Shown one piece after another: positions 5,497 through 32,575 of a stretch of 64,000 nucleotides of DNA. Both the position numbers and the translations under genes were made by a program. The notes under the pieces were generated by a model, which had not been told where the DNA came from, did no database searches, and saw only the letters and a program-made list of their open reading frames with translations. The number at the start of each line of letters is the position of its first letter. Position 1 is the stretch's first letter. Source of the DNA: an uncultured Candidatus Saccharibacteria bacterium (GTDB lineage: Bacteria > Patescibacteriota > Minisyncoccia > Phycocordibacterales > UBA9973); NCBI GenBank assembly GCA_964440545.1, contig CAYTSO010000001.1, positions 63,827 through 127,826 of the forward strand, read 5' to 3'.

Positions 5497-5511
5497 GGCT
5501 GGGGTGAGACA

Positions 5512-6021: not shown

Positions 6022-6027
6022 TTATAT

Positions 6028-6612: not shown

Positions 6613-6677
6613 TTGGCCATTATATCACAAAGGTATTGGGGGCTTGCCTTCACATTGTAAAATGCTATTATTTGCGT

Positions 6678-7034
6678 ATGTTAGATAAAAAGAAAATTAA
6701 AGAAAAACTAGAGAAAGAAAGAGACGAATTGCTCGAGCAGTTGAAGGATATGGGTAAATTTAACGCTGAAACAAACGACTGGGAAGCTATTCCAGAAGAG
6801 CTGGAATACCCAGATGTTGATGATGGCGATAAAGCTGATCGCTCTGAAGATTTTGAGGCAAGAAGCTCTATCGTGGAAACACTGGAGCCTAGGTTAAAAA
6901 CTATTTTAGAGGCGCTTAAAAATTTAAACAAGGCATCTTTTGGAAAGTGCGAAGTTTGCAAGAAGGCGATCGAAGAAACTCGGCTTGAAGTAAATCCGTC
7001 TGCTCGAACCTGCAAAGAACACATAAAGGGGTAA
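6678..7034 (+). CDS. TraR/DksA-family C4-type zinc-finger protein
   Basis: C-terminal CEVCKK-x17-CKEH zinc finger after acidic coiled-coil; start ATG 6678 in frame with ORF 6534..7034; extended -10 TGTAAAAT at 6656-6663. Confidence 0.6.
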   Translation: MLDKKKIKEKLEKERDELLEQLKDMGKFNAETNDWEAIPEELEYPDVDDGDKADRSEDFEARSSIVETLEPRLKTILEALKNLNKASFGKCEVCKKAIEETRLEVNPSARTCKEHIKG

Positions 7035-7042
7035 AATAAATT

Positions 7043-19455: not shown

Positions 19456-22400
19456 ATGAAAAAGAATTTTCACTCCAAGTTTTTTGTGTTAGCAATTTTA
19501 TTAATAATTATTATCAGCGGGCTTTATTTTAGTCTACGTAACGCAACAGCGGATAGTGTTATGGTTGAGTATGGGGAAGATGATGTGATGGAAAATACCA
19601 CTGTGTCCATTGCTACACGCGATGAAACTTCTTCTCCTTGGCGCAAGTCGCCCATAACTTACAACCGCACTCTAAACGGTTCGATAAATGATTCGTTGCA
19701 AATAGACCAACAGCCAATGCGATACAAGACAACGGATGAAGGAATTTATAAACCAGCGAAAGCTTCTTTTACAATACCAACAGCATATAGCACAAAGAGT
19801 TTTTCTCTAAAAAAGTGTTTTACCCCAACGACAGGCATTACTCGCCCTCTGTTTTGGTCGCTTAACGTATATGGAACCACGTTAAATTATTCAGCCAACC
19901 AAAATATTTATCTAGATACTTTTTCCGTCTCAGGGTCTTCTCCTGCTAGCTCCGCTGTCGTTGACTCGACGACATATGGTTGTCCAGACCCGATAAAGAG
20001 CAAACCACCAATGCCTTACACCTATGGTTCAACATGGTACGGTTCTCCTTGGTATAGTTCTACCGGACTTTCAAGTATCACTGCCAATTTTTGCTCTGAC
20101 GGTACATTAAATATTCAAACCTACTTGAATGGGGTTCCATACACAGCGACCTGGTCTTTGCCAAGCAGTCTCACAATTAGTGGTCCCGATTTGACAAAAA
20201 ATAATTGGATAATTAATGGGAGTCTTGTTCCTACCGATTTAGCCCCGTCTTCTCTGATAAATGCGACTAAGACCATATCCTCTGGCACATCATTTACTTC
20301 TGGTGTATACAGCATCAATACTGCAAGAAAAGGAGGAGCTTATACAGCTTCTTATTCTGGAGCAGGGCCAAATAACTCGACACTTGGTTCAATAACGTAT
20401 TCGAGTGGCGGTAGTAGTGTTTCCTTTACTTGTTCCGCGAACCAGAATAAATATATTACATTAAATTTTTGGTCAAATGTCGATTTGACAGGTGATCCGG
20501 ATTCTTCTATTCAATTACTAGATCCTTCCACGAACAATCCTTTAACAAATATTACTACCACAACCAGTAACATAAAACTTTCTGGTAAGGTAAAAAATAT
20601 TGGTACAGTTTCTACTGGTACTGGTGAATCAAGCTACTTCCAAAATTTTTTTGAAATCGACTATCAAAAAGACCCGCCAGTTCTTGGTATAGAAGCTGTG
20701 GCAAGTAATGTTAATACTCCATTAGCGGCTAACGCGACAGCAACAACTACTGTTACCTCTAGCGGGACTATTTATTTTCCTTACGCTGGCACAAGTAGGG
20801 TAAGAGTTTGTGCAGACAAAACCAGTATAAGTAGTGGTGGACGTATTTCTGAGTCAAACAACATTACACCTCCTAACCCTCCGGGAGGTCCTGTCCCTCC
20901 TGGAACAGGAGAGCAGAATAATTGTGGTCCATGGACGACAGTGAATGTAACTAGTGGAGCATCAGCAATAAGCGTGGATTTAACTGCGAGCCCAATCAGC
21001 ATGACCCTGCCAACAAACTCAACTACTCTAGCTTGGACAACCACCGGAACACCAGATAGTTGTACTGCTTCGGGTTCTTGGAGCGGAGCAAAAACTGTAA
21101 GTGGGGGGACTGAGAATAAAACTGGATTAGTCGCAGGCACTTATACTTATACGATTACTTGCTCAAAAACTGGGGTAACAGACGCCACAGATAGTGTGAG
21201 TGTTGTTGTATCTGCCGGTGCGGTTCCTATTGTTACTATTTCAGCAAACCCGACCTCAGGAACAGTTGGTAGTGTTAGCCCGACGATTACTTATAGCGCA
21301 ACTAATAATCCAACTTCTTGTACCGCAACGGGTGATTGGGTGAATCTTTCTCCGCCGACAGCAACTGGAACAAGTCAGACTCAAGCCCAAGGGGTATTGA
21401 GTACCATTAAAACATATACATACACTTTGACTTGTACAAATTCCTACGGAACCGGGAGCCCAGCAAGTGCGACAGTAAATGTAACGGCAGAAAGTTCTGT
21501 GCCTATTTTAACAGATACCAGCATAACCAATATTACTTCAGCAAATGCTACTCTTGGTGGAACTGTTTTCTCTTGGGGTACCCCAGCGCAAGGAAAAAGA
21601 GGAACCTGCTGGTCGGCATCAGACATTCCTACTCCACTTACTTTTACTACAATGCCCGCTGGCTGTGCCCTTAAAGACACTGTTAATACAGGTTCCACTG
21701 GAAATTTTAGTCACGTTAGAACAATCTCACCTACACGTCCACTTTACGTTCGTGCTTTTGCTGGAAATGATTCTGGCATAGGTTGGGGGCCTCAAAAAGC
21801 AATTGCCGCGGATCTTACAGCAGGGGCGGTTGATGTCTCAGGAGAAATTGTGTCTGGTGTTGATAGAACATATACGGCAACAATTTCCAATATTGGGAAT
21901 TTTACCACTGGTAGTTCTTTCCACAATTTCTTTCAAAAAGCAACTGTTTCGGCAGCCGTAGCTCCAACTCTTCCACAGGGCGACAGCAGGATTACTGATC
22001 TTCCTTATACTTCAACTTCCCCAGAACCCTTATCAGCGTTAAATAGCGGCGGGACTGCTACGGTAACTTCTCCCAGTGTTGCTTTTTCTTCAAGTGGCTC
22101 AATCCGAGTTTGTGCAGATAAAACAACAAGCTCAGGAGGAAGTTCAATAAACGAAGCAAATGATAGTGGGACAGGGGAGGACAACAACTGTGGTCCGTGG
22201 ACGGACGTAGAAGTTGACACCACTGGAGCTCTCTCAGCCTCTTCCCCTTGTGAAATCAACGTAAATAATGAATGTACCACAACCTTAACTTGGAATATAC
22301 CAAATCCTCTACCGGATGTTGAGACAGCTGTCACGACCCCAGATCACGTTACTGTTCCAGGGACAAGCGCAGTATCTGGCATGACGACCTACACGTTTAT

Positions 22401-22899
22401 TGTTGATGGTCCATCAGGTAATCCAAATAGCAGAATGTTTTATCTTTATCATGACGAACTTGAGCTGGCAAATGCGCAAGTTCGGCCACAGTGCCCTGCC
22501 GGTGAATATTGGAATGGTTCAACTTGCGCTCTGGCGGTAGCTGATTATTGGACATACGATGATGTCACCTGTGGTTCCGATTGTAAAAAAATAGCTGAAT
22601 GCAGAGATGGCACCGACGAAGGCGAGGACGAAAATTGTATACCATGTAGCCCAGAACAAGCTGGGGTTTGCGAAGGGGGAATTCCAGTTCAATCATGCGC
22701 ACCTGGAGAAGGGGCATGTCCCCTTAATGGACCGCTTTGTTCATCTCCACCAAATCACCTAAGTCCTTGTATTCCAGGAAGCACTTCAAGTGCAATAAGC
22801 AGTTCTACTTCTAAATGGACATGGACTTGTACTCCTGCCGTGGGTGATGTTTCTTCCTGCACAGAGTGGAAAAAGCAGCCAATCATTATTGAAGACTAG
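19456..22899 (+). CDS. Giant secreted/surface protein 1 (1147 aa): N-terminal signal/anchor, Thr/Ser/Asn-rich, two CARDB-like modules, two paired-Cys Ig-like repeats, C-terminal Cys-rich module with KKQPIIIED tail
   Basis: Signal MKKNFHSKFFVLAILLIIIISG; CARDB-like ends ...RVCADKTSISSGGRISESNN...GEQNNCGPW and ...IRVCADKTTSSGGSSINEANDSGTGEDNNCGPW (E-x-N-E-x-NN signature); repeats NPTSCTA(S/T)G.W...TYTYT(I/L)TC at about 20962-21213 and 21223-21489; 20 Cys in the last 140 aa; TATAAT 6 nt before ATG. Confidence 0.7.
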   Translation: MKKNFHSKFFVLAILLIIIISGLYFSLRNATADSVMVEYGEDDVMENTTVSIATRDETSSPWRKSPITYNRTLNGSINDSLQIDQQPMRYKTTDEGIYKPAKASFTIPTAYSTKSFSLKKCFTPTTGITRPLFWSLNVYGTTLNYSANQNIYLDTFSVSGSSPASSAVVDSTTYGCPDPIKSKPPMPYTYGSTWYGSPWYSSTGLSSITANFCSDGTLNIQTYLNGVPYTATWSLPSSLTISGPDLTKNNWIINGSLVPTDLAPSSLINATKTISSGTSFTSGVYSINTARKGGAYTASYSGAGPNNSTLGSITYSSGGSSVSFTCSANQNKYITLNFWSNVDLTGDPDSSIQLLDPSTNNPLTNITTTTSNIKLSGKVKNIGTVSTGTGESSYFQNFFEIDYQKDPPVLGIEAVASNVNTPLAANATATTTVTSSGTIYFPYAGTSRVRVCADKTSISSGGRISESNNITPPNPPGGPVPPGTGEQNNCGPWTTVNVTSGASAISVDLTASPISMTLPTNSTTLAWTTTGTPDSCTASGSWSGAKTVSGGTENKTGLVAGTYTYTITCSKTGVTDATDSVSVVVSAGAVPIVTISANPTSGTVGSVSPTITYSATNNPTSCTATGDWVNLSPPTATGTSQTQAQGVLSTIKTYTYTLTCTNSYGTGSPASATVNVTAESSVPILTDTSITNITSANATLGGTVFSWGTPAQGKRGTCWSASDIPTPLTFTTMPAGCALKDTVNTGSTGNFSHVRTISPTRPLYVRAFAGNDSGIGWGPQKAIAADLTAGAVDVSGEIVSGVDRTYTATISNIGNFTTGSSFHNFFQKATVSAAVAPTLPQGDSRITDLPYTSTSPEPLSALNSGGTATVTSPSVAFSSSGSIRVCADKTTSSGGSSINEANDSGTGEDNNCGPWTDVEVDTTGALSASSPCEINVNNECTTTLTWNIPNPLPDVETAVTTPDHVTVPGTSAVSGMTTYTFIVDGPSGNPNSRMFYLYHDELELANAQVRPQCPAGEYWNGSTCALAVADYWTYDDVTCGSDCKKIAECRDGTDEGEDENCIPCSPEQAGVCEGGIPVQSCAPGEGACPLNGPLCSSPPNHLSPCIPGSTSSAISSSTSKWTWTCTPAVGDVSSCTEWKKQPIIIED

Positions 22900-22908
22900 T
22901 AAGTTAGT

Positions 22909-22945
22909 AAAAAATCCCCTTGATCTCAATCAGGGGGATTTTTGG
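22909..22945 (+). terminator. Rho-independent terminator (ATCCCCT-loop-AGGGGAT + T-run)
   Basis: aaaaaatccccttgatctcaatcagggggatttttgg. Confidence 0.7.
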
Positions 22946-23060
22946 GTTGTTGTGGATTACTTTATAAATATTTTTTTATTTCTTGTTATAATAGATCTAC
23001 TAATTCCATTAAAATATAATATATGGAGTAAAGTTTTGATTATTAATTAATTATTAAAAA

Positions 23061-26000
23061 ATGAAAAAATATTTTCAATTCAAACTCGTTTTGTTTTTTG
23101 TTCTCTCGTTATTAATCACTGGTGCTTTTTATTTTAATTCATCAGACAGTGTACGGGCTGCGTGTAACGAAGGAACGACTCGAACTGGGGTAGTTGACTC
23201 GATTACAGCCTCGGCTTCTGGCACAACAGTAAGTGGAATTGTAACACTTGCTCCTATGCCAGCAACCTGCAGTGGGGGGTATTATGAAGAAGATGGAACC
23301 GTTAAATTAAAGTTGGTTGATTTAAACGAGAATCCAATAAGTGGATATGAAGACTCTCTCGAGGGGCTAAATGGAGTATTCCATGATGGTGATAATTCAT
23401 ACTCAATGAGCATCTCCGGGTTGCCTGCTGGTTCGTACAAAATGAAAGCCGTACCATGCAATCCAATAACCACTTGCGGTGCAGCGAAATTTTCTGATCC
23501 CTTCACCTATACTCCGCCACCTGCTACTTACACGGTAACTGGGACCGCCGGATCTGGGGGCACAATTTCCCCTTCCTCAAGAACAGTGAATTCCGGTCAA
23601 ACAACGACATTTACCGTTACTCCAAATTCTGGGTATACCGCTTCTGCTTCTGGTTGCGGTGGTTCTCTTTCTGGCACGACCTATACTACTGGAGCAATAA
23701 CATCAAATTGTACAGTAACTGCAACCTTTACTGCGGCCTCCGTTCCTCCAACTCCTACCAATCTGACTGCTACTCCTGGTGCTTGCGGAACGGGAACCAT
23801 AAACGTTTCTTGGACTGCTTCGAGCGGAGCAACTGGTTATATTCTTTTAGATAACGGAAATACTATTTACACAGGAGCTAATACTTCTTATTCCCATACT
23901 GGGTTGAGCGCAGGATCATCTCATGCATATAATGTTGCGGCGACAAATGCCAATGGCACATCAGGAAATACAAGTACAGTTTCTGCTTTTGCCCCATCAG
24001 CTTGTAGTGCTCCCGTCGTCACTCTTTCCGCTAAAATAATTCTTTCCAACGGTGCGGAGTTTAGTCGTGCTTGGCAAAAAATGCCGGTTACCTTTAAAAA
24101 TTCTACAGATAAAATTAGGCTAACCTGGAACGCAACCAATTCCCCGACTTCTTGTACTGCCGATGGAGATTGGTCTGGAACAAAAACATCTAGCGGGACA
24201 GAAGACATTCCTCCATCTACTCCGAAAATTTATAATTTTACTTTGACTTGTACTGGCGCTGGTGGGTCTGACTCTGAAACCGTGCAAGTAGAAGCAGTTC
24301 CGGATACTAGTATGCCAAATCTTGTTCCCGATTTTGCCAGTGTAAACATACCAGATACCATTACCATAGGTGTTCCGGTGACATTAACTGCTAAAGTTAA
24401 AAATACTGGTAGCTCAGCAACGAGCGCGTCTCCTGGTTGGGGAAATAGCAATCTAGGTTCTTATTCTCGCGGTTCTTTTATTAGCGCCTTCTTTATGGCT
24501 ACTCCCTTAAGTGGAGGTACGCAAGCAAACGGAGGGCAATATTTAAGCGATGGGGATCCTGCATTCAAATACAATGTTCCTCCTAATTATCCAAACGAAT
24601 GGTGGTATAATCCTGGAACTTCTCCTTATGGATATGGTATTGCTGGATTACCTTGGGGCAATACGGCTTATCGACTCATGACTTCTCCTATTGCTGCTGG
24701 CGGAACATCTGAAACAGTTTCTACAACTTTTACTTTACCACCAGAGAACCAGCCACCTTTTATTGATTTTTCCGGAACACAAGCAATAACATTTTGTGCA
24801 GATACGGATCAACTTTCTGCGCCTATTGGCGACAACCCAATAGGTATTTTTGAGATTGCTAAACACTATGCTACCGACCCAATTTATCCAACTAGTTCTC
24901 ATACAGAAGTAGATAATTGTACTCCTTGGAAAATTGTGAATGTAACTGGTGGAGTTACTACTTATAGTGTTACCCCAAGTGCGGGAGCAAACGGAACCAT
25001 TTCCCCAAACACACCACAGACAGTTAATTCAGGTGCGACAGCAATCTTTACTGTTACTCCAAATGCCGGATATACAGCTAGTGTCGAAGGAACTTGTGGT
25101 GGATTTTTGGCTGGAACTACTTACACTACTAATCCTGTCCTCGCAAGCTGTACGGTAATTGCCAACTTTACAGCATCACCAAATCCTGATCTGACGGTTC
25201 AATATGACCCAACAACGATAAAAATTCCTGCGAATACCTCGCACACTTTTTCTGCCACAGTACAAAATATAGGGAGTGTTACCACAGGAAGTGCCTTTAA
25301 TAACATGTTTCAGACAGCAACCGGCTTTACTTTAAAGCAAGATGGCACTCCTAATTATGATCTTCCGATTAACCGGCAGGATTATGATGTTGGAACCACC
25401 GCTAGCGCACTAGCGGGCGGTGCCACCCTGGAGATTACAAAAAGCCTTTCATTTTCTCCAGGTACTTACTACGTTAGGGCTTGTGCAGACTTACCTCCAT
25501 ATGATTACGGGGTAGTCCTCAATGAAAATGAAGAAAATAACTGTAACGCTGGTGGTGCCCTTGCCTGGCAGGCAATAGAGGTGGGCCCGGATTTGACAGC
25601 GAGTGCTCCCGTAGCAGACAACTCAGGTCCTTACTTAGCTGGTGACTCAATATCTTTTAGCTCAACAATCGCGAACAGTGGAGTAGGTGATGTTGCTGGT
25701 ACCGTTACTCATATTTTCCAATATGACTATGATATAAACCACGAAAATAACAATGAAGGATTTATTGAAGTAAACACTACCAATGGAATTGTTGAAGGTG
25801 ACAACAAGGATGTTTCAGCGCAAATTCCTACTCAAAGTGATACAATACTTCTTTACATTCGAGTTTGCGCTGACAATGACGCTAACTGGAGCGACTTAGT
25901 GGATGAATCAAATGAGGGCAATAACTGTAGTGTTGCCATTAACGGAGGGTGGACAGTTTTAAACATAACTAGTTCTGTTTCTTGTGGTATTGCAGGAGAT

Positions 26001-26240
26001 CTTTGCCCAATTATTGGCAGTGAATGTGGACAAATCGGAGAATGTCAACCTGATGGTATCTGTGGCGGAACACTTGATCCCGTAACTTGTCCAGTTAATA
26101 ATTGTACAAAAGTTCCCGACACGTGTTCTGGTGGAATTACCCCAGAGTCACTTCCAGACAGCACAGCTAAATTTATTTGGAAATGCGGGGGGTACACCTG
26201 TGAGGTAGAAAAAAAGCAGCCGATTATTATTGAAGACTAA
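23061..26240 (+). CDS. Giant secreted/surface protein 2 (1059 aa): signal peptide, two divergent InlB-B-repeat-like modules, FN3-like module, paired-Cys Ig-like repeat, three CARDB-like modules, C-terminal Cys-rich module with KKQPIIIED tail
   Basis: InlB-B-like: TYTVTGTAGSGGTISPSSRTVNSGQTTTFTVTPNSGYTASASGCGG...CTVTATFTA (about 23523-23735) and TYSVTPSAGANGTISPNTPQTVNSGATAIFTVTPNAGYTASVEGTCGG...CTVIANFTA (about 24960-25175); FN3-like PTNLTATPG...INVSWTASSGATGYIL...YSHTGLSAGSSHAYNVAA (about 23748-23999); CARDB-like ends YVRACADLPPYDYGVVLNENEENNCN, IRVCADNDANWSDLVDESNEGNNCS. Confidence 0.7.
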   Translation: MKKYFQFKLVLFFVLSLLITGAFYFNSSDSVRAACNEGTTRTGVVDSITASASGTTVSGIVTLAPMPATCSGGYYEEDGTVKLKLVDLNENPISGYEDSLEGLNGVFHDGDNSYSMSISGLPAGSYKMKAVPCNPITTCGAAKFSDPFTYTPPPATYTVTGTAGSGGTISPSSRTVNSGQTTTFTVTPNSGYTASASGCGGSLSGTTYTTGAITSNCTVTATFTAASVPPTPTNLTATPGACGTGTINVSWTASSGATGYILLDNGNTIYTGANTSYSHTGLSAGSSHAYNVAATNANGTSGNTSTVSAFAPSACSAPVVTLSAKIILSNGAEFSRAWQKMPVTFKNSTDKIRLTWNATNSPTSCTADGDWSGTKTSSGTEDIPPSTPKIYNFTLTCTGAGGSDSETVQVEAVPDTSMPNLVPDFASVNIPDTITIGVPVTLTAKVKNTGSSATSASPGWGNSNLGSYSRGSFISAFFMATPLSGGTQANGGQYLSDGDPAFKYNVPPNYPNEWWYNPGTSPYGYGIAGLPWGNTAYRLMTSPIAAGGTSETVSTTFTLPPENQPPFIDFSGTQAITFCADTDQLSAPIGDNPIGIFEIAKHYATDPIYPTSSHTEVDNCTPWKIVNVTGGVTTYSVTPSAGANGTISPNTPQTVNSGATAIFTVTPNAGYTASVEGTCGGFLAGTTYTTNPVLASCTVIANFTASPNPDLTVQYDPTTIKIPANTSHTFSATVQNIGSVTTGSAFNNMFQTATGFTLKQDGTPNYDLPINRQDYDVGTTASALAGGATLEITKSLSFSPGTYYVRACADLPPYDYGVVLNENEENNCNAGGALAWQAIEVGPDLTASAPVADNSGPYLAGDSISFSSTIANSGVGDVAGTVTHIFQYDYDINHENNNEGFIEVNTTNGIVEGDNKDVSAQIPTQSDTILLYIRVCADNDANWSDLVDESNEGNNCSVAINGGWTVLNITSSVSCGIAGDLCPIIGSECGQIGECQPDGICGGTLDPVTCPVNNCTKVPDTCSGGITPESLPDSTAKFIWKCGGYTCEVEKKQPIIIED

Positions 26241-26297: not shown

Positions 26298-26325
26298 AAA
26301 ATCTCCCTTGTGGGGGATTTTTTTG
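26298..26325 (+). terminator. Rho-independent terminator (ATCTCCC-ttgt-GGGGGAT with one G-U, + T-run)
   Basis: aaaaaaatctcccttgtgggggatttttttg. Confidence 0.65.
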
Positions 26326-26339
26326 TTATACTATATAGG

Positions 26340-28109
26340 ATGGTAATCAACGAAGAACAGTTTAAAAAATCTATTTTAGATTCAGGACTTATTTCGCGTT
26401 CTGAATTTGAGGAAATAGTTAAAAAATCAGAAGCAAGTGATCAGAAAATTGGCGATATTTTGCTTTCTGAAGGAAAAATATCAGAAACTGACCTGAAACG
26501 AATAGAGGCCTTTGTGTTAAGCATACCGTTTGTTGATTTAAATAATCAAAAAATAGAGTCCTCCGTCCTTTTACTTATTCCAGAACCTATCGCTAGAAAT
26601 TACAATATTGTTGCCTATAAAAAAACCGAAAAAACTTTAGAGGTGGCGATGTTGGATGTGGATGATTTGCCGGTAATCGATTTCATCAAAAAACGCTCCG
26701 GACTAAAAATCCTTCCTCGACTTACTGATACTGTTTCCATGAGGTCTGCGCTCGTTCAATATCGGCAAAGCCTGAAGAAAGAATTTCAGGACATTATTGA
26801 AAAAGAGTGTGACGCTATCTCTTGTAAAGATGAAGGGGCGTGGAAATTAAACGGAAAATCTAGTGAGAAATCTGAATCCGAATTGAAACAAATGGCAGAA
26901 GAACTGCCGATTGTAAAAATTGTTGACTCTCTAATTTTTCACGCGATTCTGCAAAACGCTTCTGACATCCACATTGAGCCTGGAGAAAAGAACCTCACTG
27001 TGCGTTATCGAATAGATGGTATTTTGCACGACGCAATGACCCTAGACAAAAATGCCACACTGGGCATAACTGCTCGCGTAAAGGTGTTGGCAAATTTAAA
27101 ACTGGACGAAAAAAGGTTGCCTCAGGACGGAAGATTTAAAACAGAACAAAATGGAGAAAAAGTTTCCTTTCGTGTTTCTACTCTGCCAACTTTTTACGGA
27201 GAAAAAACCGTTATTCGAATTTTGAAGGAAAACATGCACGGGTTTTCTCTGGAGACACTTGGTTTTCACGGAGAAGGGCTAGAAAGAATTCACGAGGCCT
27301 TAAAACAAAAAACAGGAATGATTTTGGCTACGGGTCCAACCGGAAGCGGAAAAACAACCACTCTTTACACGATGCTCGATATTTTGAACAAACCGGAAGT
27401 AAACATTTCCACCGTAGAAGATCCTATTGAGTATCAAATGCCAAGAGTTAACCAGACGCAGGTAAAACCCGAGATTGGCTTAACTTTTGCCAATGGTCTT
27501 CGCTCTTTACTTCGGCAAGATCCAGACATTGTGATGGTGGGGGAAATTCGGGACGGAGAAACTGCCGGTTTGGCGATTAATGCTTCTCTTACTGGACACT
27601 TGGTTTTATCTACCGTGCACACTAATTCCGCTGCTGGCTCGATTCCAAGACTTATTGATATGGGAGCCGAGCCCTTTTTGATAACGGCTACCGTAAAGAC
27701 CATTATTGCTCAGAGGCTGGTGCGTAGACTCGCTCTCAATAAGGAAAAATATTTTTTATCGCCTGATGAAATAAAAAATCTTGCCAAGATTGTTGATTTG
27801 GATAGGGTACTTAATTTTCTCAGAGAAGAAAAAATTGTAGATGAGAAAAGTACTTGGGATAAAATTCCTTTTTACAAAGCAGTAAAGAGCTCAGACTCCG
27901 AAGATGGCTATGGCGGGCGTATCGGCATACATGAAGTATTGGCGGTAACCCAAACAATCAGAGAAATGATTTTGAAGAGTGGTTCGCAAGACGATATAGA
28001 AGCCCAGGCAAAAAAAGAAGGAATGATGACAATGATAGAGGACGGAGTTTTTCAAGCAGTGCTTGGAATGACTTCGTTAGAGGAAGTGTTCAGGGTGGTT
28101 TCTGAATAA
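26340..28109 (+). CDS. pilB: Type IV pilus / type II secretion assembly ATPase (PilB/GspE family)
   Basis: N-terminal T2SSE_N-like domain, Walker A GPTGSGKTTT, Asp box, Walker B DPDIVMVGEIRD, His box LVLSTVHTNSAAGS; ORF-track GTG 26310 lies inside the upstream terminator, so ATG 26340 is preferred (extended -10 TGtTATACT 7 nt upstream). Confidence 0.9.
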   Translation: MVINEEQFKKSILDSGLISRSEFEEIVKKSEASDQKIGDILLSEGKISETDLKRIEAFVLSIPFVDLNNQKIESSVLLLIPEPIARNYNIVAYKKTEKTLEVAMLDVDDLPVIDFIKKRSGLKILPRLTDTVSMRSALVQYRQSLKKEFQDIIEKECDAISCKDEGAWKLNGKSSEKSESELKQMAEELPIVKIVDSLIFHAILQNASDIHIEPGEKNLTVRYRIDGILHDAMTLDKNATLGITARVKVLANLKLDEKRLPQDGRFKTEQNGEKVSFRVSTLPTFYGEKTVIRILKENMHGFSLETLGFHGEGLERIHEALKQKTGMILATGPTGSGKTTTLYTMLDILNKPEVNISTVEDPIEYQMPRVNQTQVKPEIGLTFANGLRSLLRQDPDIVMVGEIRDGETAGLAINASLTGHLVLSTVHTNSAAGSIPRLIDMGAEPFLITATVKTIIAQRLVRRLALNKEKYFLSPDEIKNLAKIVDLDRVLNFLREEKIVDEKSTWDKIPFYKAVKSSDSEDGYGGRIGIHEVLAVTQTIREMILKSGSQDDIEAQAKKEGMMTMIEDGVFQAVLGMTSLEEVFRVVSE

Positions 28110-28135: not shown

Positions 28136-29353
28136 ATGTTTTTTACTTATATCGCAAAAACAAAAACAGGGGAAGAAATTGAAGGCGTGATAAATGCTGC
28201 AGATCGTTATGTTGCTGCCCAGGAAATAAAATCTCGTGGCCTAATGCCACTATCTGTTAAAGAAAAGAGAGAAGTTTTTTGGAATATTTCTTCAAAGTTC
28301 TCTAATATTTTTTCTAGAATAAGTGTTAACGAAAAAATTATTTTTACAAAAAATTTGAGCGGAATGCTTCGAGCAGGGCTTTCTCTTTATCGAGCGCTGT
28401 CGGTTTTGGAAAAACAGACTAAAAATCCTAAGTTTAATAAAATTTTATTATCTCTAGCAACTGATATAAATGCCGGTCAGTCTTTTTTTTATGCTCTTTC
28501 AAAATTTCCCGAAGTATTTTCTGGCCTTTTTCTTTCGATGACGAAAGCCGGAGAAGAGTCCGGAAATCTTTCTGGGGCTCTGTCTGATATTGGTTTAAAT
28601 TTAGAAAAGGCCCACTCCTTAACAAAAAAAATAAGAGGAGCGCTTATTTATCCTGGCATCATTCTTTCTGCGATGGTCGTCATTGGTGTTTTAATGTTTG
28701 CTTTTGTGGTTCCAACCCTGGCGAGCACATTCAAAGAGCTTGGGGTCGTTCTGCCTCTTTCTACCAGGATTCTTATTTTCTTTGGTAATTTTTTCTCTAA
28801 TCATTTGATTTTAAGTTTTACTATTATTATTGGCGTTGGTTTTGGTTTATATATGATGCTTCGAGCCAAGTTTATAAGACCTTTTATTGATTTTTTTGTT
28901 ATCAAAATTCCAGTTGTCAGTACTTTAACCAAAGAATTAAACACTGCCCGCACCGCCCGAACAATTTCTTCTCTTTTGCTTGCTGGAGTTTCCCTCGGAA
29001 GAGCCTTGGAAATAACAGAAGATGTGGTCCAAAATATTTATTACAAAAAAGTTCTGGAGAAAGCTAAAGATGAGATAGAAAAAGGCGTTCCGCTTTCTCA
29101 GGCTTTTAAAACAAATATCAAACTTTATCCGATCATGATGGGAGAAATGGTAGAAGTTGGAGAAGAGACAGGCAGACTTTCTGACATGTTGCTGGACATT
29201 TCTTCTTTTTATGAAGAAGAGGTTGAAAGCAAGACAAAGAATCTTTCCACCATTATCGAGCCTTTGCTGATGATTGTTATTGGGTCGGGGGTTGGATTTT
29301 TTGCTATTTCAATGATTTCTCCGCTTTATTCAATTTTAGGAAGCATAGAATAA
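28136..29353 (+). CDS. pilC: Type IV pilus / T2SS inner-membrane platform protein (PilC/GspF family)
   Basis: 405 aa, duplicated T2SSF domains, 3-4 TM helices, conserved GxxL.ALS..F region. Confidence 0.85.
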   Translation: MFFTYIAKTKTGEEIEGVINAADRYVAAQEIKSRGLMPLSVKEKREVFWNISSKFSNIFSRISVNEKIIFTKNLSGMLRAGLSLYRALSVLEKQTKNPKFNKILLSLATDINAGQSFFYALSKFPEVFSGLFLSMTKAGEESGNLSGALSDIGLNLEKAHSLTKKIRGALIYPGIILSAMVVIGVLMFAFVVPTLASTFKELGVVLPLSTRILIFFGNFFSNHLILSFTIIIGVGFGLYMMLRAKFIRPFIDFFVIKIPVVSTLTKELNTARTARTISSLLLAGVSLGRALEITEDVVQNIYYKKVLEKAKDEIEKGVPLSQAFKTNIKLYPIMMGEMVEVGEETGRLSDMLLDISSFYEEEVESKTKNLSTIIEPLLMIVIGSGVGFFAISMISPLYSILGSIE

Positions 29354-29357
29354 TTTT

Positions 29358-29825
29358 ATGAAAAATAATTTTAGAAAAGGAATAAGTGTTATAGAAATTT
29401 TAATTGTAATTGTCGTCCTTGGCATTATATTTTCAATTGTCTTTTCGCAATTTTCTAAAATTAGGGAAAATCAAGTATTGAAAACAGCCGTGAGTGATAT
29501 TTTGTCTAGTTTAAATAAAGCGCAAACGCAAACCTTAGCATCTCTAGACTCTTCTTCTTACGGGGTGCATTTTCAAGCTGACAAGGTTGTAATTTTTAAA
29601 GGCACGATCTTTTCAGAAAGCGATGTTGATAATGAAGAAATAAATATTTTGGCACCTGCAACCATCTCAGACGTAACTTTGTCCGAAGTGAGCGGAAGTA
29701 CCGGCGATATTTACTTTAATCGTCTTTCTGGAATGCCAAATCAGGCTGGTGTTATAACTATCTCTACAGATTCTTTTTCTAAAATTATTACAATTTCAGC
29801 TACAGGCACTGCTAGTGCGAACTAA
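29358..29825 (+). CDS. Prepilin-type (class III signal) pilin/pseudopilin, probable major subunit
   Basis: MKNNFRKG|ISVIEILIVIVVLGII: G-1, Glu+5, hydrophobic N-terminal helix. Confidence 0.75.
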   Translation: MKNNFRKGISVIEILIVIVVLGIIFSIVFSQFSKIRENQVLKTAVSDILSSLNKAQTQTLASLDSSSYGVHFQADKVVIFKGTIFSESDVDNEEINILAPATISDVTLSEVSGSTGDIYFNRLSGMPNQAGVITISTDSFSKIITISATGTASAN

Positions 29826-29877: not shown

Positions 29878-30300
29878 ATGAAAAAGCAAACTACAAACAA
29901 AGGTTTTATGGCTGTCGAAATATTAATTGCGGTTTCAATTATTGTTATTTTTGTTTTGGTTGCCATGACTGTTGCTCAAAAATCTATTTATATTTCTCGT
30001 CAGGCCCTACATGCGACTCAAGCGGCCTTTTTACTAGAGGAAGGGGCAGAAAATACCAGAATTATTCGGGACAATAATTGGGAAGATCTTGTCGCCCTGA
30101 ATACTTCGGAGCAAATAGGAATTTTTAACAGATCGGTTGTTGTTTCTGAAGTAAGCAGAAATGAAATAACTGGAGATATTGGTTCTGGTGTGGTAGACCC
30201 TAGAACAAAACTGATAACAGTTACAGTTTCCTGGCCTGAAGGAGGGCAAACTATAAGCAAAACTTTACAATTTTATGTAGCGGATATTTTTTCAGAATGA
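29878..30300 (+). CDS. Prepilin-type minor pilin/pseudopilin
   Basis: MKKQTTNKG|FMAVEILIAVSIIV: G-1, Glu+5. Confidence 0.7.
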   Translation: MKKQTTNKGFMAVEILIAVSIIVIFVLVAMTVAQKSIYISRQALHATQAAFLLEEGAENTRIIRDNNWEDLVALNTSEQIGIFNRSVVVSEVSRNEITGDIGSGVVDPRTKLITVTVSWPEGGQTISKTLQFYVADIFSE

Positions 30301-30821
30301 AAATTTTTAATAAAAAAGTGAATAGAAAAAAAAGTCCGTCTGCGTTTGGAGGTTACGCTGTTTTAGAATTAATCTTTTACATTACTTTTTTTGCCATTCT
30401 TTCAATTGTTCTCGTCAACGCGATGATAACCATGGCAAAATCATTCAAAGAAACTTCTATTCAAGCAGAGTTGGTTCAAAGCGGAATGATGATGGAGAAA
30501 ATATCTCGGGAGCTTAGACAGGCCGACGATTTTTCTTTTGCTTCAAATATTCTTATTATCAATACAAGAGACGATTTTGACAATTCAAAAACAATAACCT
30601 ACGCCTTTTTTGATTCAAGTGCGCAAATAGAAGATAGTCTTCTTGGAGATTTAGGAAATTTAAATACTCCCAATATTGCAATTATAGATTTTAATTTTAC
30701 GCCAGTCATCACCGCTAAAGGAAAAGCGGCAGTTGTAACGTTAACCGTTAGGTCTAACAACGACACCAGCGAGAGAACAATCACTTTTAACAATACTGTT
30801 GTCCTCCGGGGAAGTTATTAA
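30297..30821 (+). CDS. Prepilin-type minor pilin/pseudopilin
   Basis: ...SAFGG|YAVLELIFYITFF: G-1, Glu+5; start overlaps previous stop (ATGA). Confidence 0.6.
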   Translation: MKIFNKKVNRKKSPSAFGGYAVLELIFYITFFAILSIVLVNAMITMAKSFKETSIQAELVQSGMMMEKISRELRQADDFSFASNILIINTRDDFDNSKTITYAFFDSSAQIEDSLLGDLGNLNTPNIAIIDFNFTPVITAKGKAAVVTLTVRSNNDTSERTITFNNTVVLRGSY

Positions 30822-30832: not shown

Positions 30833-32575
30833 ATGTCAGGATCTAGAAAAATAAAAAAAATTAATTATCAAGCCGGTGCAGCAATGCTTGTTTCCGTGAT
30901 TTTCTTTCTTTTTATTTCCCTGGCTATTATCTTTGGTCTTGTTTCTCCAACGGTGCGAGAATTTAAAATAGCGAATGATTTAATAAAATCCAAGCAAAGT
31001 TTCTTTTTGTCCGAATCTGGAGCAGAGGATATATTTTTTAGATTAAAAAACGCAAAACCAACAAATTCCCCTTCCTTTATTGAGCTTAATGGTAGTACTG
31101 CTACGACCACCATTGCTGATTCTGGTTACAATGAGAAAACGATAACCGCCCTAGGGGATGTCTTTTCCAGACAAAGAGTAAACGAGCTTCTTTTGGGCAC
31201 TGGTACGGGGATTGCTTTCGGCTACGGAGTGCAAGTTGGAACCGGCGGTTTTACCATGGGAAACGGGTCCTCTGTTCAAGGAAGCGTGTATTCAAACGGC
31301 ACAATTGTTGGAGCCGGATCAATTACTGGCACTGCCGTGTCGGCAAACTCTGCCGCTCTTTCCGCCGATCAAGTAAATGGCTCTGGTACTCCTGCATATG
31401 ATATTACATTTGGAAACGCAGACAGCACACAGGATTTTGCCCAAAGTTTTACTGTGAGCACAACAGGGGTGGTTAGTAAGGTTGAATTATATTTTAAAAA
31501 AGTCAGCATACCCTCAAATTTAACCGTTCGAATTGTTTCTGACGACGGAGGGAGCCCGGGTACGACCACTCTTGCTTCTAGTGTTGTTTCTGCCTCTTTA
31601 ATTTCTACTAATTATGGTTGGGTAAACGTGCCTTTTTCTTCTAACCCGGAATTAATATCCGGCACAAATTATTGGATTGTTATTGACGCAGCTACAAATT
31701 CTTCTCGCTATTATGCTATAGGTGCAAATGACAACGGCTACGGAAGTGGAGTTGGCAAAATTGGTAAGTATGGTAACAACTGGAATACCACAAGTCCAGC
31801 TGGATTAGACGGATACTTTAAGTTATATTTGGGCGGGCTAACAGGCCTCATTGACGGGATTATCGTTGGCACAGAGGGCGAGGGTAATGCTTATGCACAC
31901 ACCGTAAACAATTCAAACATTGCGGGCACAAATTATTGTCAGGAAGGAAATAATAATAATAAATCTTGCGATACAAGCTTGCCGGATCCAACGCAGGTCG
32001 CTATGCCAATTTCTGAGCAAAATATCTTAGATTGGAAAAACGAGGCAGCAGAAGGAGGAACACATTTTGGAGACATTACCATCGATGGAATTTCTACTTC
32101 CTTGGGTCCTAAAAGAATTACAGGCAATCTTATTGTCACCAACAATGCCCATCTCACCATGACAGGAAATATTTGGGTTGAGGGGGATATGGATATTAGC
32201 AACAACGCAGTCGTTAGTCTTTCTCCAAGTTATGGCACCTCTGATGGTACCATGATTGTTGATGGCATTATTGATATATCAAACAACGCTATCTTTAACG
32301 GTTCCGGCTCTGAGGGCAGTTATATTATGGCTCTTTCAACCTCAACTTCAACCTTGGCCATTACCTTGGCAAACAACGGTGGAGCTGTAACTCTTTACGC
32401 AGCCAATGGTACGGTAAACCTGGCGAATAATTCTACCGCCAAGGCGCTAAACGGGAAGTATATCAATTTAAATAATAATGCTGTGGTAATTTATGATGAA
32501 GGATTGGCAAACTCCAACTTTGTAAATGGGCCATCCGGTGGATGGAATATCAGATCGTGGAAAGAGGTTAAATAA
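30833..32575 (+). CDS. Large (580 aa) Glu5-less pilin-like protein (GspK/PilX-like candidate tip or adhesin subunit) with beta-helix-like Asn-rich repeats
   Basis: N-term ...INYQAG|AAMLVSVIFFLF: prepilin-like hydrophobic helix but Val at +5; C-terminal repeats NNAHLTMTGNIWVEGDMDISNNAVVSL / IDISNNAIFNGSG / ANNGGAVTLYAANGTVNLANNSTA. Confidence 0.45.
   Translation: MSGSRKIKKINYQAGAAMLVSVIFFLFISLAIIFGLVSPTVREFKIANDLIKSKQSFFLSESGAEDIFFRLKNAKPTNSPSFIELNGSTATTTIADSGYNEKTITALGDVFSRQRVNELLLGTGTGIAFGYGVQVGTGGFTMGNGSSVQGSVYSNGTIVGAGSITGTAVSANSAALSADQVNGSGTPAYDITFGNADSTQDFAQSFTVSTTGVVSKVELYFKKVSIPSNLTVRIVSDDGGSPGTTTLASSVVSASLISTNYGWVNVPFSSNPELISGTNYWIVIDAATNSSRYYAIGANDNGYGSGVGKIGKYGNNWNTTSPAGLDGYFKLYLGGLTGLIDGIIVGTEGEGNAYAHTVNNSNIAGTNYCQEGNNNNKSCDTSLPDPTQVAMPISEQNILDWKNEAAEGGTHFGDITIDGISTSLGPKRITGNLIVTNNAHLTMTGNIWVEGDMDISNNAVVSLSPSYGTSDGTMIVDGIIDISNNAIFNGSGSEGSYIMALSTSTSTLAITLANNGGAVTLYAANGTVNLANNSTAKALNGKYINLNNNAVVIYDEGLANSNFVNGPSGGWNIRSWKEVK

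What the first reader, a model, noticed from the sequence alone, without database searches (positions are those of the whole stretch)
22483..26240. Both giant proteins end in a Cys-rich module plus an identical KKQPIIIED tail conserved even at nucleotide level: candidate novel C-terminal sorting/anchoring signal
Protein 1 ends ...SKWTWTCTPAVGDVSSCTEWKKQPIIIED, after about 20 Cys in its last 140 aa (nt 22483-22896). Protein 2 ends ...AKFIWKCGGYTCEVEKKQPIIIED, after about 17 Cys in its last 90 aa (nt 25968-26237). The last 9 codons are identical in amino-acid sequence and differ at only 2 synonymous third positions (aaaaagcagccAatCattattgaagac versus aaaaagcagccGatTattattgaagac). The rest of the two proteins has diverged freely. 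The tail is neither LPXTG, PEP-CTERM, a T9SS CTD, GPI-like nor a pilin motif. A short, strictly conserved, charged-hydrophobic-acidic C-terminus preceded by a W-x-C-x(4-10)-C element looks like a recognition tag. It could be recognised by a dedicated protease, a transpeptidase, or the adjacent pseudopilus machinery. Alternatively it is a hotspot of gene conversion between the paralogs.
Basis: seen in the sequence. Interest (0 to 1): 0.75.

Follow-up and report, generated by a model that had tools for sequence, protein, structure and literature searches.

The report
Conserved pilus-linked C-terminal tail tag
Two giant secreted surface proteins of an ultra-small (CPR) bacterium end in the same 9-residue tail, and that tail turns out to be a portable tag shared by very different surface proteins encoded right next to the type IV pilus motor gene in dozens of related genomes, most likely the peg that plugs them onto the pilus.

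Summary
Both ORFs (19456-22899 and 23061-26240) end in KKQPIIIED, with 25 of 27 tail bases identical and the two differences synonymous. Identity falls to background just upstream.

The tail is not private to this genome. 44 non-redundant ORFs from Nomurabacteria/Paceibacteria-type contigs end in K-K-x-P-x-[FIY]-I-E-[DN]-COOH. Their synonymous codons vary freely. The bodies range from 270 to 1750 aa and are hypervariable, and every full-length member has a Sec-type signal peptide. The tail follows at least three unrelated kinds of domain. Where enough downstream sequence exists, pilB follows in 36 of 40 cases. No hydrophobic anchor follows the tail, no sortase-like gene lies nearby, and each genome has one such locus.

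The best reading is inferred, not shown: a docking peptide that attaches interchangeable adhesins to the type IV pilus tip. This would parallel the 12-residue C-terminal "plug" of Neisseria PilC1/PilC2, which binds minor pilin PilK by beta-strand augmentation (bioRxiv 2026). These proteins lack the PilY1 propeller and come from a lineage thought to have no such proteins. I class it as a new variant of a known kind. Binding was not tested.

The parts
19456..22899 (+). P1: 1147-aa secreted giant surface protein carrying the tail
   Evidence: ORF and translation. No Pfam or NCBIfam family. Identical protein on an NCBI 160-kb contig and in Logan SRR14492172.
19456..19551 (+). P1 N-terminal Sec-type signal peptide (MKKNFHSKFFVLAILLIIIISGLYFSLRNATA); the cleavage site is inferred
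   Evidence: Read from the sequence. Every full-length family member shows the same kind of N-terminus. No signal-peptide predictor was run.
22738..22869 (+). P1 terminal 4-Cys module (C1095, C1105, KWTWTC1125, C1135)
   Evidence: Aligns with the family module and with tandem-repeat units of other proteins. The AF2 model has low confidence, pLDDT 54.6.
22870..22896 (+). P1 tail KKQPIIIED, the last 9 codons; the stop codon is 22897-22899
22910..22943 (+). Terminator-like hairpin after P1
   Evidence: 15-bp stem followed by a T run.
23061..26240 (+). P2: 1059-aa secreted giant surface protein carrying the tail
   Evidence: ORF and translation. Pfam CARDB, InlB B-repeat-like domain and a weak fn3.
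23061..23159 (+). P2 N-terminal Sec-type signal peptide (MKKYFQFKLVLFFVLSLLITGAFYFNSSDSVRA); the cleavage site is inferred
   Evidence: Read from the sequence; compare.
26103..26210 (+). P2 terminal 4-Cys module (C1015, C1022, KFIWKC1042, C1047)
   Evidence: Alignments A1 and A4 and the representatives search.
26211..26237 (+). P2 tail KKQPIIIED; the stop codon is 26238-26240
26302..26326 (+). Terminator-like hairpin and T run after P2. It is followed by TATACTATA and the probable pilB start codon ATG at 26340
   Evidence: and the sequence. The same arrangement occurs in L005 and L011.
26340..28109 (+). pilB (T2SSE plus MshEN assembly ATPase). The start is taken as MVINEEQFKK by comparison with orthologues; the mechanical ORF list starts it at GTG 26310
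   Evidence: Pfam 5e-123. Orthologues are 77-86% identical and lie directly downstream of tail genes.
28136..29353 (+). pilC platform protein (T2SSF)
   Evidence: synteny.
29358..29825 (+). Minor pilin mp155 (N_methyl motif, weak GspH match; GISVIE)
29878..30300 (+). Minor pilin mp140 (KGFMAVE)
   Evidence: conserved synteny.
30297..30821 (+). Minor pilin-like mp174 (GGYAVLE)
30833..32575 (+). big580: large pilin-like protein with an N-terminal hydrophobic segment lacking Glu5, and a conserved C-terminus ...GPSGGWNIRSWKEVK. It is a candidate tip subunit and receptor; this is inferred
   Evidence: No Pfam or PDB match.

Best explanation
The 9-residue tail is a portable peptide tag that must sit at the exact C-terminus. 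Its family consensus is K-K-x-P-x-[F/I/Y]-I-E-[D/N]-COOH. It marks Sec-exported, hypervariable surface proteins encoded at the head of the type IV pilus gene cluster in Nomurabacteria/Paceibacteria-type CPR bacteria.

Shown: the tail is conserved at protein level across many genomes; it is independent of the domain that precedes it; it is confined to one pilB-linked locus per genome.

Inferred: after export and signal-peptide removal, the otherwise unstructured tail docks the protein onto the pilus. The most likely partner is the minor-pilin complex that primes and caps the filament (mp155, mp140, mp174, big580). The tail would add a beta-strand to an edge strand of one of these subunits, with its KK(K) and E-D/N charges forming salt bridges. 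This is the mechanism reported for the 12-residue C-terminal plug of Neisseria PilC1/PilC2 on PilK. The variable body (CARDB, Ig-like, fn3, dockerin, TSP1 and Cys-repeat domains) would then be displayed at the pilus tip as an exchangeable adhesin for host or surface recognition. P1 and P2 would be two alternative cargos for the same socket.
For: 1. Family. Homology and position, with no pattern imposed, found tails in P0003 (KGKKPGYIEN), P0008 (SPIIIEN), P0033 (KKKPIFIEN), P0034 (KSPGYIEN), P0037 and P0038. Adjacent genes end KAPVVIEP and KKKPIYKEN.

2. Unbiased location test. A whole-collection scan of 185,579 species genomes for C-x3-KK-x-P-x-[IFYV]-I-E-[DN]-stop gave 18 loci. Fifteen are real, each in a different CPR assembly. 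I estimate about 5 hits by chance, and 3 were seen. A metagenome scan without the Cys requirement gave 82 loci, about 40 of them real.

3. pilB linkage. Of 40 non-redundant tail genes with at least 400 nt of downstream sequence, pilB starts within 260 nt in 31 and after one further gene in 5. Two of the remaining four are the first gene of a tandem pair. The order NusA / tail gene(s) / pilB / pilC / four pilin-like genes / TIM / PGK recurs.

4. Protein-level selection. Lys, Pro, Ile, Phe, Glu and Asp/Asn codons vary freely among members.

5. Portability. The tail follows the 4-Cys WxWxC module (28 members), an Ig-like domain (10) or other Cys-rich ends (6). In P0008 it occupies the position of the inter-domain linker. 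There it is modelled as coil beyond a confidently predicted beta-sandwich: pLDDT 90 for the domain and about 70 for the last residues.

6. Arrays of the Cys module in other proteins end without the tail, so the tail is not needed to cap the fold.

7. Every full-length member has a Sec-type signal peptide and no other anchor motif.

8. Precedent. In N. meningitidis, PilC1 and PilC2 have divergent N-termini and an identical 12-residue tail. That tail is disordered alone and binds PilK by beta-strand augmentation. It is necessary and sufficient for tip localisation (bioRxiv 10.64898/2026.09.18.752573).
Against: No binding or complex prediction could be run, so the receptor is unknown. All four pilin-like proteins have conserved C-terminal strands, and none stands out.

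The AF2 model of the P1 module plus tail is low confidence (pLDDT 54.6). It says nothing firm about the window's own proteins.

A terminator-like hairpin separates each tail gene from the next gene, so linkage to pilB is positional and not shown to be transcriptional.

Three variant-tail loci are not next to pilB: L003 (SPIIIEN), L010 (KKPPKYIEN) and L107 (LNPx[VL]IEQ, twice).

PilC/PilY1 plugs are reported to differ in sequence between systems. This tail is nearly invariant across contigs whose minor pilins are only 44-64% identical to the window's. That could point to a more conserved receptor than a minor pilin.

The K-K-(K)-P and I-E-[DN] positions of most collected members were imposed by the search patterns.
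Confidence: 0.5

Rival explanations
1. The tail is a cargo-loading or secretion signal rather than a display anchor. It binds the pilus or pseudopilus tip only transiently, and the protein is pushed through the envelope or S-layer and released. This is how the N-terminal T4bP secretion signal of TcpF and CofJ works on minor pilins TcpB and CofB.
For: The genetic logic is the same as for TcpF and CofJ: a Sec-exported non-pilin protein encoded with the pilus genes, carrying a short terminal peptide while the body diverges (PMC9565799; PMC10120004). pilB linkage is shown. No other retention motif appears in the proteins.
Against: The signal is C-terminal, not N-terminal, and has no sequence resemblance. 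No TcpB/CofB-like trimeric lectin-domain minor pilin was identified. The bodies are built of adhesin-type repeat domains (CARDB, Ig-like, dockerin), which fits display better than release. With these data this rival cannot be separated from the best explanation.
Confidence: 0.17
2. The tail is a general C-terminal sorting or anchoring signal. A dedicated protease, transpeptidase or cross-linking enzyme reads it and fixes the protein to the cell wall or S-layer, independently of the pilus.
For: The motif is strictly terminal with invariant P, I and E and a basic cluster. Three variant-tail loci are not adjacent to pilB. A small transglutaminase-core protein (5512-6021) and a C39-like peptidase (60625-61170) lie elsewhere in the window.
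Against: No hydrophobic helix or trailing basic cluster follows the motif, so it is not tripartite. Each genome has one locus with 1-2 substrates, not a scattered substrate set. The conserved neighbours are NusA and pilB/pilC, not an enzyme. NCBIfam, which holds the known sorting-signal models, gives no hit. The two enzymes named above are 13 and 34 kb away and are not part of the conserved synteny.
Confidence: 0.12
3. The tail is only the structural end-piece of the last domain, a cap or leftover inter-repeat linker of the 4-Cys repeat. It is conserved for folding, not recognition.
For: In tandem arrays each 4-Cys unit is followed by x-x-[AK]-K-P-[IV]-N-G. The K-K-x-P-[IV] part of the tail therefore resembles the inter-repeat linker.
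Against: The same tail follows Ig-like domains and other Cys-rich ends. Arrays of the repeat in other proteins end a few residues after the last Cys, without [FI]-I-E-[DN]. In P0008 the tail lies beyond the last strand of a confidently modelled beta-sandwich. The tail is more conserved than the non-Cys positions of the module.
Confidence: 0.07
4. The identity is a product of gene conversion or recent duplication between the paralogues and has no function of its own.
For: In L011 the two tandem paralogues share 146 nt of 3' coding sequence plus 57 nt of downstream DNA at 100% identity. This is a true conversion or duplication tract.
Against: In the window the identical block is only 27 nt, contains 2 synonymous differences, and ends sharply; the flanks differ. 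The same peptide is encoded with different codons in more than 40 unrelated contigs.
Confidence: 0.03
5. The tail acts in cis as a nascent peptide, in the manner of the SecM, MifM or VemP arrest peptides. It would tune expression of the downstream pilB in response to export.
For: The ORF is secreted and lies directly upstream of a machinery gene. It has a conserved C-terminal peptide that includes a Lys run and a Pro.
Against: A terminator-like hairpin and 50-200 nt separate the stop codon from pilB. P1 carries the tail but is followed by P2, not pilB. The tail persists where no pilB follows. The ORFs are 270-1750 aa multi-domain adhesin-like proteins, not short leader peptides. The conserved unit ends exactly at the stop codon and is only 9 residues long.
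Confidence: 0.03

Closest known systems
[quoted passage not shown]
   Same: Both are very large non-pilin proteins exported with a signal peptide. Two paralogues have divergent N-terminal regions but an identical short C-terminal tail of about 1% of the protein. In the preprint the tail is unstructured alone. The proteins are associated with a set of four minor pilins. In the preprint the tail carries opposite charges needed for binding, and here the tail has KK(K) and E-D/N.
   Different: No IPR008707/PF05567 beta-propeller is present. The tail is 9 residues with an unrelated sequence. It is nearly invariant across many genera, whereas PilC/PilY1 plugs are reported to differ between systems. 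The host is a CPR bacterium, and the preprint states that monoderm T4aP lack PilC/PilY1. The genes lie upstream of pilB rather than within the minor-pilin operon. Binding was not tested here.
T4bP secretion signal of TcpF and CofJ, bound by minor pilins TcpB and CofB (PMC9565799; PMC10120004)
   Same: A short flexible terminal peptide on a Sec-exported protein encoded with the pilus genes. A lineage-specific consensus motif sits on otherwise divergent proteins.
   Different: That signal is N-terminal, centred on an aromatic residue, and bound in the cleft of a homotrimeric modular minor pilin of diderm T4bP. Its purpose is secretion, not display. No TcpB/CofB-like protein was seen here.
Tripartite C-terminal sorting signals (LPXTG/sortase, PEP-CTERM/exosortase, GlyGly-CTERM/rhombosortase, PGF-CTERM/archaeosortase)
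   Same: A conserved short motif at the C-terminus of secreted surface proteins with variable bodies.
   Different: No transmembrane helix or basic tail follows the motif. Each genome has one locus rather than many scattered substrates. No sortase-type gene is in the neighbourhood. NCBIfam and Pfam give no hit.
Modular minor pilins that functionalise the pilus tip in monoderms, and Saccharibacteria PilX1/PilX2 (PMC11623550)
   Same: Both solve the same problem, presenting diverse ligand-binding domains on a type IV pilus of a monoderm-like or CPR cell. big580 in this window resembles that class: it is pilin-like, has a non-canonical N-terminus and carries a large extra domain.
   Different: In those proteins the adhesive module is fused covalently to a pilin. 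P1 and P2 have ordinary signal peptides and no pilin N-terminus.
Unnamed 4-Cys tandem repeat (C-x3-9-C-x15-25-[WY]-x-W-x-C-x4-12-C, often ...THYxWxCxGxNGGxTAxxC-x-K-A-K-P-[IV]-N-G)
   Same: The module just before the tail in P1 and P2 is one copy of this repeat.
   Different: In other proteins it forms arrays of 7-23 units without the [FI]-I-E-[DN] ending. It has no Pfam or NCBIfam model.

Membership tests
PilC/PilY1 pilus-tip adhesins with C-terminal plug | Large non-pilin protein exported by a type I signal peptide, with a variable N-terminal region | tested here: met
   P1 is 1147 aa and P2 is 1059 aa. Both have Sec-type N-termini and no prepilin motif. The bodies are hypervariable: the best outside hit covers 14-21% of P1. 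The signal peptide was judged by eye, not with a predictor.
PilC/PilY1 pilus-tip adhesins with C-terminal plug | Conserved C-terminal beta-propeller domain (IPR008707 / Pfam PF05567) | tested here: not met
   Pfam scans of P1, P2, P0003, P0008, P0033 and P0034 show no such domain.
PilC/PilY1 pilus-tip adhesins with C-terminal plug | Short extreme C-terminal tail, identical between paralogues and unstructured when modelled alone | tested here: met
   The 9-aa tail is identical in P1 and P2. It is coil in both AF2 models. The P0008 model is confident for the domain (pLDDT 90) and lower for the tail (about 70). The P1 model is low confidence throughout.
PilC/PilY1 pilus-tip adhesins with C-terminal plug | Tail binds the tip minor pilin (PilK) by beta-strand augmentation | not testable with these tools
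   Only single-chain prediction of window sequences is allowed, so no complex prediction or binding assay was possible. Four pilin-like genes are present and all have conserved C-terminal strands.
PilC/PilY1 pilus-tip adhesins with C-terminal plug | Genetic association with type IV pilus genes and minor pilins | tested here: met
   pilB follows the tail gene in 36 of 40 informative contigs. The order pilB-pilC-four pilin-like genes recurs in the window, L002, L006, L009, L012, L013 and L019.
Sortase/exosortase-type tripartite C-terminal sorting signals | Signature motif followed by a hydrophobic transmembrane segment and a basic cluster | tested here: not met
   The protein ends 3 residues after the short hydrophobic triplet. 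The basic cluster precedes the motif rather than following it.
Sortase/exosortase-type tripartite C-terminal sorting signals | Multiple substrates scattered through each genome | tested here: not met
   The whole-genome pattern scan hit one locus in each of 15 assemblies, and one of those loci has two adjacent genes. Only P1 and P2 carry the tail in the 64-kb window. Caveat: the pattern was strict, so divergent tails elsewhere would be missed.
Sortase/exosortase-type tripartite C-terminal sorting signals | Dedicated sorting enzyme encoded in the genome, often nearby | tested here: inconclusive
   Pfam annotation of about 50 ORFs of the window found no sortase, exosortase, rhombosortase or PDZ-protease. 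The rest of the genome was not available.
T4bP secretion signal (TcpF/CofJ type) | Flexible N-terminal peptide of the mature cargo, with a critical aromatic residue | tested here: not met
   The conserved peptide is at the C-terminus. The mature N-termini are not conserved between P1, P2 and relatives.
T4bP secretion signal (TcpF/CofJ type) | Cargo gene encoded with the pilus genes | tested here: met
T4bP secretion signal (TcpF/CofJ type) | Receptor is a homotrimeric modular minor pilin (TcpB/CofB) | not tested
   Pfam and PDB sequence searches of the four pilin-like proteins gave no recognisable TcpB/CofB relative. Their folds were not compared.
T9SS C-terminal domain | A beta-sandwich CTD of about 80-100 aa matching the TIGR04183-type models | tested here: not met
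   No NCBIfam or Pfam hit. The conserved unit is 9 aa and the preceding domain varies.
4-Cys tandem repeat (unnamed) | C-x(3-9)-C-x(15-25)-[WYF]-x-[WYF]-x-C-x(4-14)-C unit detectable by profile | tested here: met
   A profile built from the P1 and P2 ends hits 7-23 units per protein in P0022-P0031 and P0035. This concerns the module before the tail, not the tail itself.
Translational arrest peptides (SecM/MifM/VemP) | A short upstream ORF whose stalled ribosome opens the ribosome-binding site of the adjacent downstream gene | tested here: not met
   The ORFs are 270-1750 aa. A terminator-like hairpin lies between the stop codon and the next gene. P1 is not followed by pilB. The tail persists without a downstream pilB.

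The most novel reading that the evidence does not exclude
Patescibacteria of the Nomurabacteria/Paceibacteria type may use a sequence-defined 9-residue C-terminal tag, conserved across genera (KKxPx[FIY]IE[DN]-COOH), to load interchangeable, fast-evolving adhesins onto their type IV pilus. This would be a PilY1-propeller-independent plug system in a lineage where non-pilin tip proteins are thought to be absent. The tag would then identify the host-recognition proteins of these uncultured episymbionts directly from sequence. It would also be a ready-made handle for displaying cargo on their pili.
Probability: 0.4. Interest if true: 0.8.

Novelty: new variant of a known kind. Interest (0 to 1): 0.62.

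Why it matters
How CPR/Patescibacteria recognise and attach to hosts is largely unknown. Their type IV pili are the best-supported attachment device. Current work places the adhesive function on modular minor pilins (PMC11623550).

A short, portable, pilus-linked C-terminal tag would do three things. First, it would pick out from sequence alone the hypervariable proteins most likely to be displayed on the pilus in a large uncultured clade. Second, it would extend the newly described plug principle (beta-strand augmentation of a tip pilin by the last residues of a giant adhesin) beyond diderm PilC/PilY1 proteins and beyond the propeller domain. Third, it would give an unusually clean experimental handle: a 9-mer that is nearly invariant across genera.

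If the tail instead proves to be read by an enzyme or another receptor, it would be a new kind of C-terminal signal.

Tried and rejected
- A word-index protein search with the two C-terminal modules (A1) found only 2 candidates, and none scored. With a 7-sequence alignment (A2) it returned only short fragments. This tool was poorly suited to a short terminal motif.
- A strict DNA pattern for [KR][KR]QP[IV]3E[DE]-stop found nothing in genome contigs or metagenome contigs. The exact KKQPIIIED variant is therefore private to this genome in those collections. Relaxed patterns were needed.
- AF2 of the last 60 aa of P1 with a 48-row alignment gave pLDDT 54.6 and is not interpretable.
- PDB sequence searches did not assign the four pilin-like proteins to the H, I, J or K classes.
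- Conservation of the minor-pilin C-termini did not single out a receptor.
- Rfam found no RNA family in the window, so there is no sign of an RNA element behind the nucleotide identity.
- Considered and rejected as the main explanation: gene conversion, repeat cap, arrest peptide, sortase-type signal, T9SS CTD. The reasons are given under the rivals and the membership tests.

Full report
OBSERVATION. The window holds two adjacent + strand ORFs. P1 spans 19456-22899 (1147 aa) and P2 spans 23061-26240 (1059 aa). Both end in KKQPIIIED. The tail-coding 27 nt lie at 22870-22896 and 26211-26237 and are identical at 25 of 27 positions; both differences are synonymous. In the same register the two preceding 27-nt blocks match at 9/27 and 5/27. 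The 29-nt pattern occurs twice in the window, against 0.00 expected from shuffles. No other ORF in the window has the tail. Elsewhere the two proteins are about 26% identical where they align at all. Each gene is followed by its own terminator-like hairpin. The window has no Rfam match.

CONTEXT. The window is a low-GC (about 0.38) stretch of mostly housekeeping genes, consistent with a CPR/Patescibacteria genome. P1 and P2 lie between NusA on the minus strand and a type IV pilus block. That block contains pilB (T2SSE plus MshEN), pilC (T2SSF), three small pilin-like genes (GISVIE, GFMAVE and GYAVLE N-termini) and a 580-aa pilin-like protein. TIM, PGK, RecJ and ComEC follow. P1 and P2 begin with ordinary Sec-type signal peptides, not prepilin leaders. 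P2 contains CARDB, InlB-B-repeat-like and weak fn3 domains, and P1 matches no Pfam or NCBIfam family. Identical proteins exist on a 160-kb NCBI contig and in a Logan assembly. The source genome is not among the GTDB species representatives searched: the exact tail was absent from that collection.

THE TAIL IS A FAMILY TRAIT. Homology searches imposed no tail pattern, yet they recovered proteins with related endings:
- P0003 (1745 aa): ...WTWDC...CSANKGKKPGYIEN
- P0008 (1635 aa): ...TVRVISPIIIEN
- P0033 (486 aa): ...WTWTC...CTELKKKPIFIEN
- P0034 (310 aa): ...CSENKSPGYIEN
- P0037: ...KKKPIFIED
- P0038: ...KKKPVIIED
Their contigs show the same neighbourhood as the window: NusA upstream and/or pilB-pilC-pilins-TIM-PGK downstream. 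Genes adjacent to these end in KAPVVIEP and KKKPIYKEN.

I then scanned 185,579 species genomes for C-x3-K-K-x-P-x-[IFYV]-I-E-[DN]-stop. This gave 18 loci. Three are chance hits (Photobacterium, Anaerolineae, Enterococcus; tiny or interrupted ORFs). I estimate about 5 chance hits from uniform base composition. The other 15 are long ORFs in 15 different Nomurabacteria, Paceibacterota, Minisyncoccia or 'Patescibacteria' MAGs, one locus per assembly. A metagenome scan for KKKPx[IFYV]IE[DN]-stop, without the Cys requirement, gave 82 loci, about half of them real.

After removing redundancy there are 44 tail-bearing ORFs. Their Lys, Pro, Ile, Phe, Glu and Asp/Asn codons vary freely, so selection acts on the peptide and not on the DNA. 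One caveat applies: the K-K-(K)-P and I-E-[DN] positions of the pattern-derived members were imposed by the search. The members found by homology and by adjacency show the natural spread. P at -6 and E at -2 are invariant, -3 is I in all but one (K in KKKPIYKEN), and -8 is K except in P0008. A more distant pair in locus L107 ends CILNPTVIEQ and CVLNPNLIEQ.

THE TAIL IS PORTABLE AND STRICTLY TERMINAL. In 28 members it follows a 4-Cys module (C...H-Y/L..C....S.WTW.C.G..GG...C.E.), as in P1 and P2. In 10 it follows the last strand of an Ig-like domain (...TTTYT[IV].C....[VT]V.VKKKP[FI]FIEN). In 6 it follows other Cys-rich ends.

The 4-Cys module is a widespread repeat. It forms arrays of 7-23 units in unrelated proteins and has no Pfam model. 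In those arrays each unit is followed by x-x-[AK]-K-P-[IV]-N-G. The K-K-x-P-[IV] part of the tail therefore resembles an inter-repeat linker. However, the arrays end without [FI]-I-E-[DN], so the tail is not a folding cap.

In P0008 the tail aligns with the inter-domain linkers of internal copies of the Ig-like domain. In a confident AF2 model (pLDDT 90.3) it is coil beyond the last strand, with lower confidence. The AF2 model of P1's last 60 residues is too poor to use (pLDDT 54.6).

LINKAGE TO THE PILUS GENES. The pattern scans were blind to genomic location. Even so, of the 40 non-redundant tail genes with at least 400 nt of downstream sequence, pilB starts within 260 nt in 31 and after one intervening gene in 5. 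Two of the other four are simply the first gene of a tandem pair (window P1 and the first L011 gene). The last two have short downstream sequence. There are exceptions. L010 keeps a tail gene (KKPPKYIEN) after NusA but lacks the pilB-pilC-pilin block at that site. L003 and L107, both with variant tails, lie next to ribosomal-protein genes.

WHAT IT IS NOT.
- It is not a tripartite sortase- or exosortase-type signal. Nothing follows the motif, each genome has one locus, no sorting enzyme lies in the window or in the conserved synteny, and there is no NCBIfam hit.
- It is not a T9SS CTD.
- It is not explained by gene conversion here. Conversion does occur elsewhere: in L011 the two paralogues share 146 nt of 3' coding sequence plus 57 nt of downstream DNA at 100% identity.
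- It is unlikely to be an arrest peptide. The ORFs are long adhesin-like proteins, a terminator lies between each and the next gene, and P1 is followed by P2 rather than pilB.

MOST LIKELY MECHANISM (INFERRED). The closest precedent is a 2026 preprint on Neisseria meningitidis PilC1 and PilC2 (10.64898/2026.09.18.752573). These two large signal-peptide-bearing paralogues have divergent N-termini and end in an identical 12-residue tail. The tail is disordered alone and binds the tip minor pilin PilK by antiparallel beta-strand augmentation with salt bridges. It is necessary and sufficient for tip localisation and piliation.

The present locus reproduces that logic point by point. There are two giant secreted paralogues, an identical short charged-hydrophobic-charged C-terminal tail, and a neighbouring set of four pilin-like genes. 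The difference is that these proteins lack the PilY1 beta-propeller, and the tail is attached to whatever domain happens to be last.

I therefore propose that the tail docks these interchangeable adhesins onto the pilus tip complex. A related possibility is transient docking for export, as with the N-terminal T4bP secretion signal of TcpF and CofJ (PMC9565799). The receptor is unknown. All four pilin-like proteins have conserved C-terminal strands, and no complex prediction was possible with the tools available.

One feature fits the plug model less well. This tail is nearly invariant across contigs whose minor pilins are only 44-64% identical to the window's, whereas PilC/PilY1 plugs are reported to vary between systems.

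NOVELTY AND VERDICT. The phenomenon is real: a pilB-linked, portable C-terminal tag in Nomurabacteria-type CPR. I found no description of it. Pfam and NCBIfam have no model, and the literature searches found no report. Current CPR work attributes tip adhesion to modular minor pilins (PMC11623550), and the plug preprint states that monoderm T4aP lack PilC/PilY1. By mechanism the tail is best classed as a new variant of a known kind (plug-type tip docking). It fails the defining domain test for membership of the PilC/PilY1 family.

My confidence that the tail is a conserved, pilus-locus-specific terminal motif is high. My confidence in the docking mechanism is about 0.5.

Noticed in passing
window 45537-49037 (+): The class I aminoacyl-tRNA synthetase (IleRS-like: tRNA-synt_1, Anticodon_1, DUF5915) has a complete histidine-phosphatase domain (His_Phos_1, residues 504-667, E 7e-35) inserted in the middle of its catalytic domain. 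This is an unusual domain insertion.
   Followed up: no
L011 (JBAZYS010000002.1), genes 4087-7155 and 1305-3989 on the minus strand: Two tandem tail-bearing paralogues share 146 nt of 3' coding sequence and 57 nt downstream, including the terminator, at 100% identity. Upstream they are unrelated. This is a clear gene-conversion or duplication tract covering the C-terminal module.
   Followed up: yes
L107 (GCA_964402215.1, CAYOAT010000003.1) 1-1092 and 1224-4811: Two adjacent secreted proteins end in CILNPTVIEQ and CVLNPNLIEQ. This is a second, divergent 'P-x-hydrophobic-I-E-x' terminal tail shared by tandem paralogues, and here the genes lie next to ribosomal-protein genes, not pilB.
   Followed up: partly
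window 30833-32575 (+) and orthologues in L002, L006, L012, L027, L106: The 580-aa pilin-like protein has an N-terminal hydrophobic segment without Glu5, a long G/N/S-rich repetitive body whose length varies between genomes (about 420-590 aa), and a conserved end ...GL.N.NF.SGPSG.W.[IV]..W.E... It has no Pfam or PDB match. It is a candidate tip subunit.
   Followed up: partly
P0022-P0031, P0035, P0039, P0040 (proteins): A 4-Cys repeat of about 50 aa (...NGxC..S..N.C..GT.ND.A.ADT.THY.W.C.G.NGG.TA..C.KAKP[IV]) forms arrays of up to 23 units in large proteins from many metagenomes. Pfam and NCBIfam do not model it.
   Followed up: partly
window 26302-26340; also L005 and L011: The terminator of the tail gene is followed immediately by TTGTTATACTATA(AT) and then the pilB start codon. 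The T run of the terminator appears to overlap a -10-like element for pilB. The mechanical ORF list starts pilB at GTG 26310, inside the hairpin; ATG 26340 (MVINEEQFKK) matches the orthologues.
   Followed up: partly
L010 (JBAYHR010000002.1) 2409-5584: A relative keeps the NusA / tail gene (KKPPKYIEN) / TIM / PGK order but lacks the whole pilB-pilC-pilin block at this site; a 381-aa secreted protein sits there instead. This genome is a useful test of whether the tail needs the pilus.
   Followed up: no
window 15375-16061 (-): A 228-aa coiled-coil protein with only weak apolipoprotein- and flagellin-like Pfam noise lies between the H+-pyrophosphatase and trigger factor genes. It is conserved at the same place in L004 (46% identity). 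Its function is unknown.
   Followed up: no
window 5512-6021 (-) and 60625-61170 (-): A small transglutaminase-core protein (168 aa) and a C39-like peptidase (180 aa) are the only enzymes in the window that could conceivably process or cross-link a peptide tail. They are 13 and 34 kb from the locus and are not part of its conserved synteny.
   Followed up: no
L015 and L019 (CAZXCD01, CAZPJV01): Two TPA assemblies labelled 'uncultured Candidatus Saccharibacteria' carry the tail locus, with PilB 77-83% identical to the window's. The label may be a misclassification of Paceibacteria-type bins.
   Followed up: no
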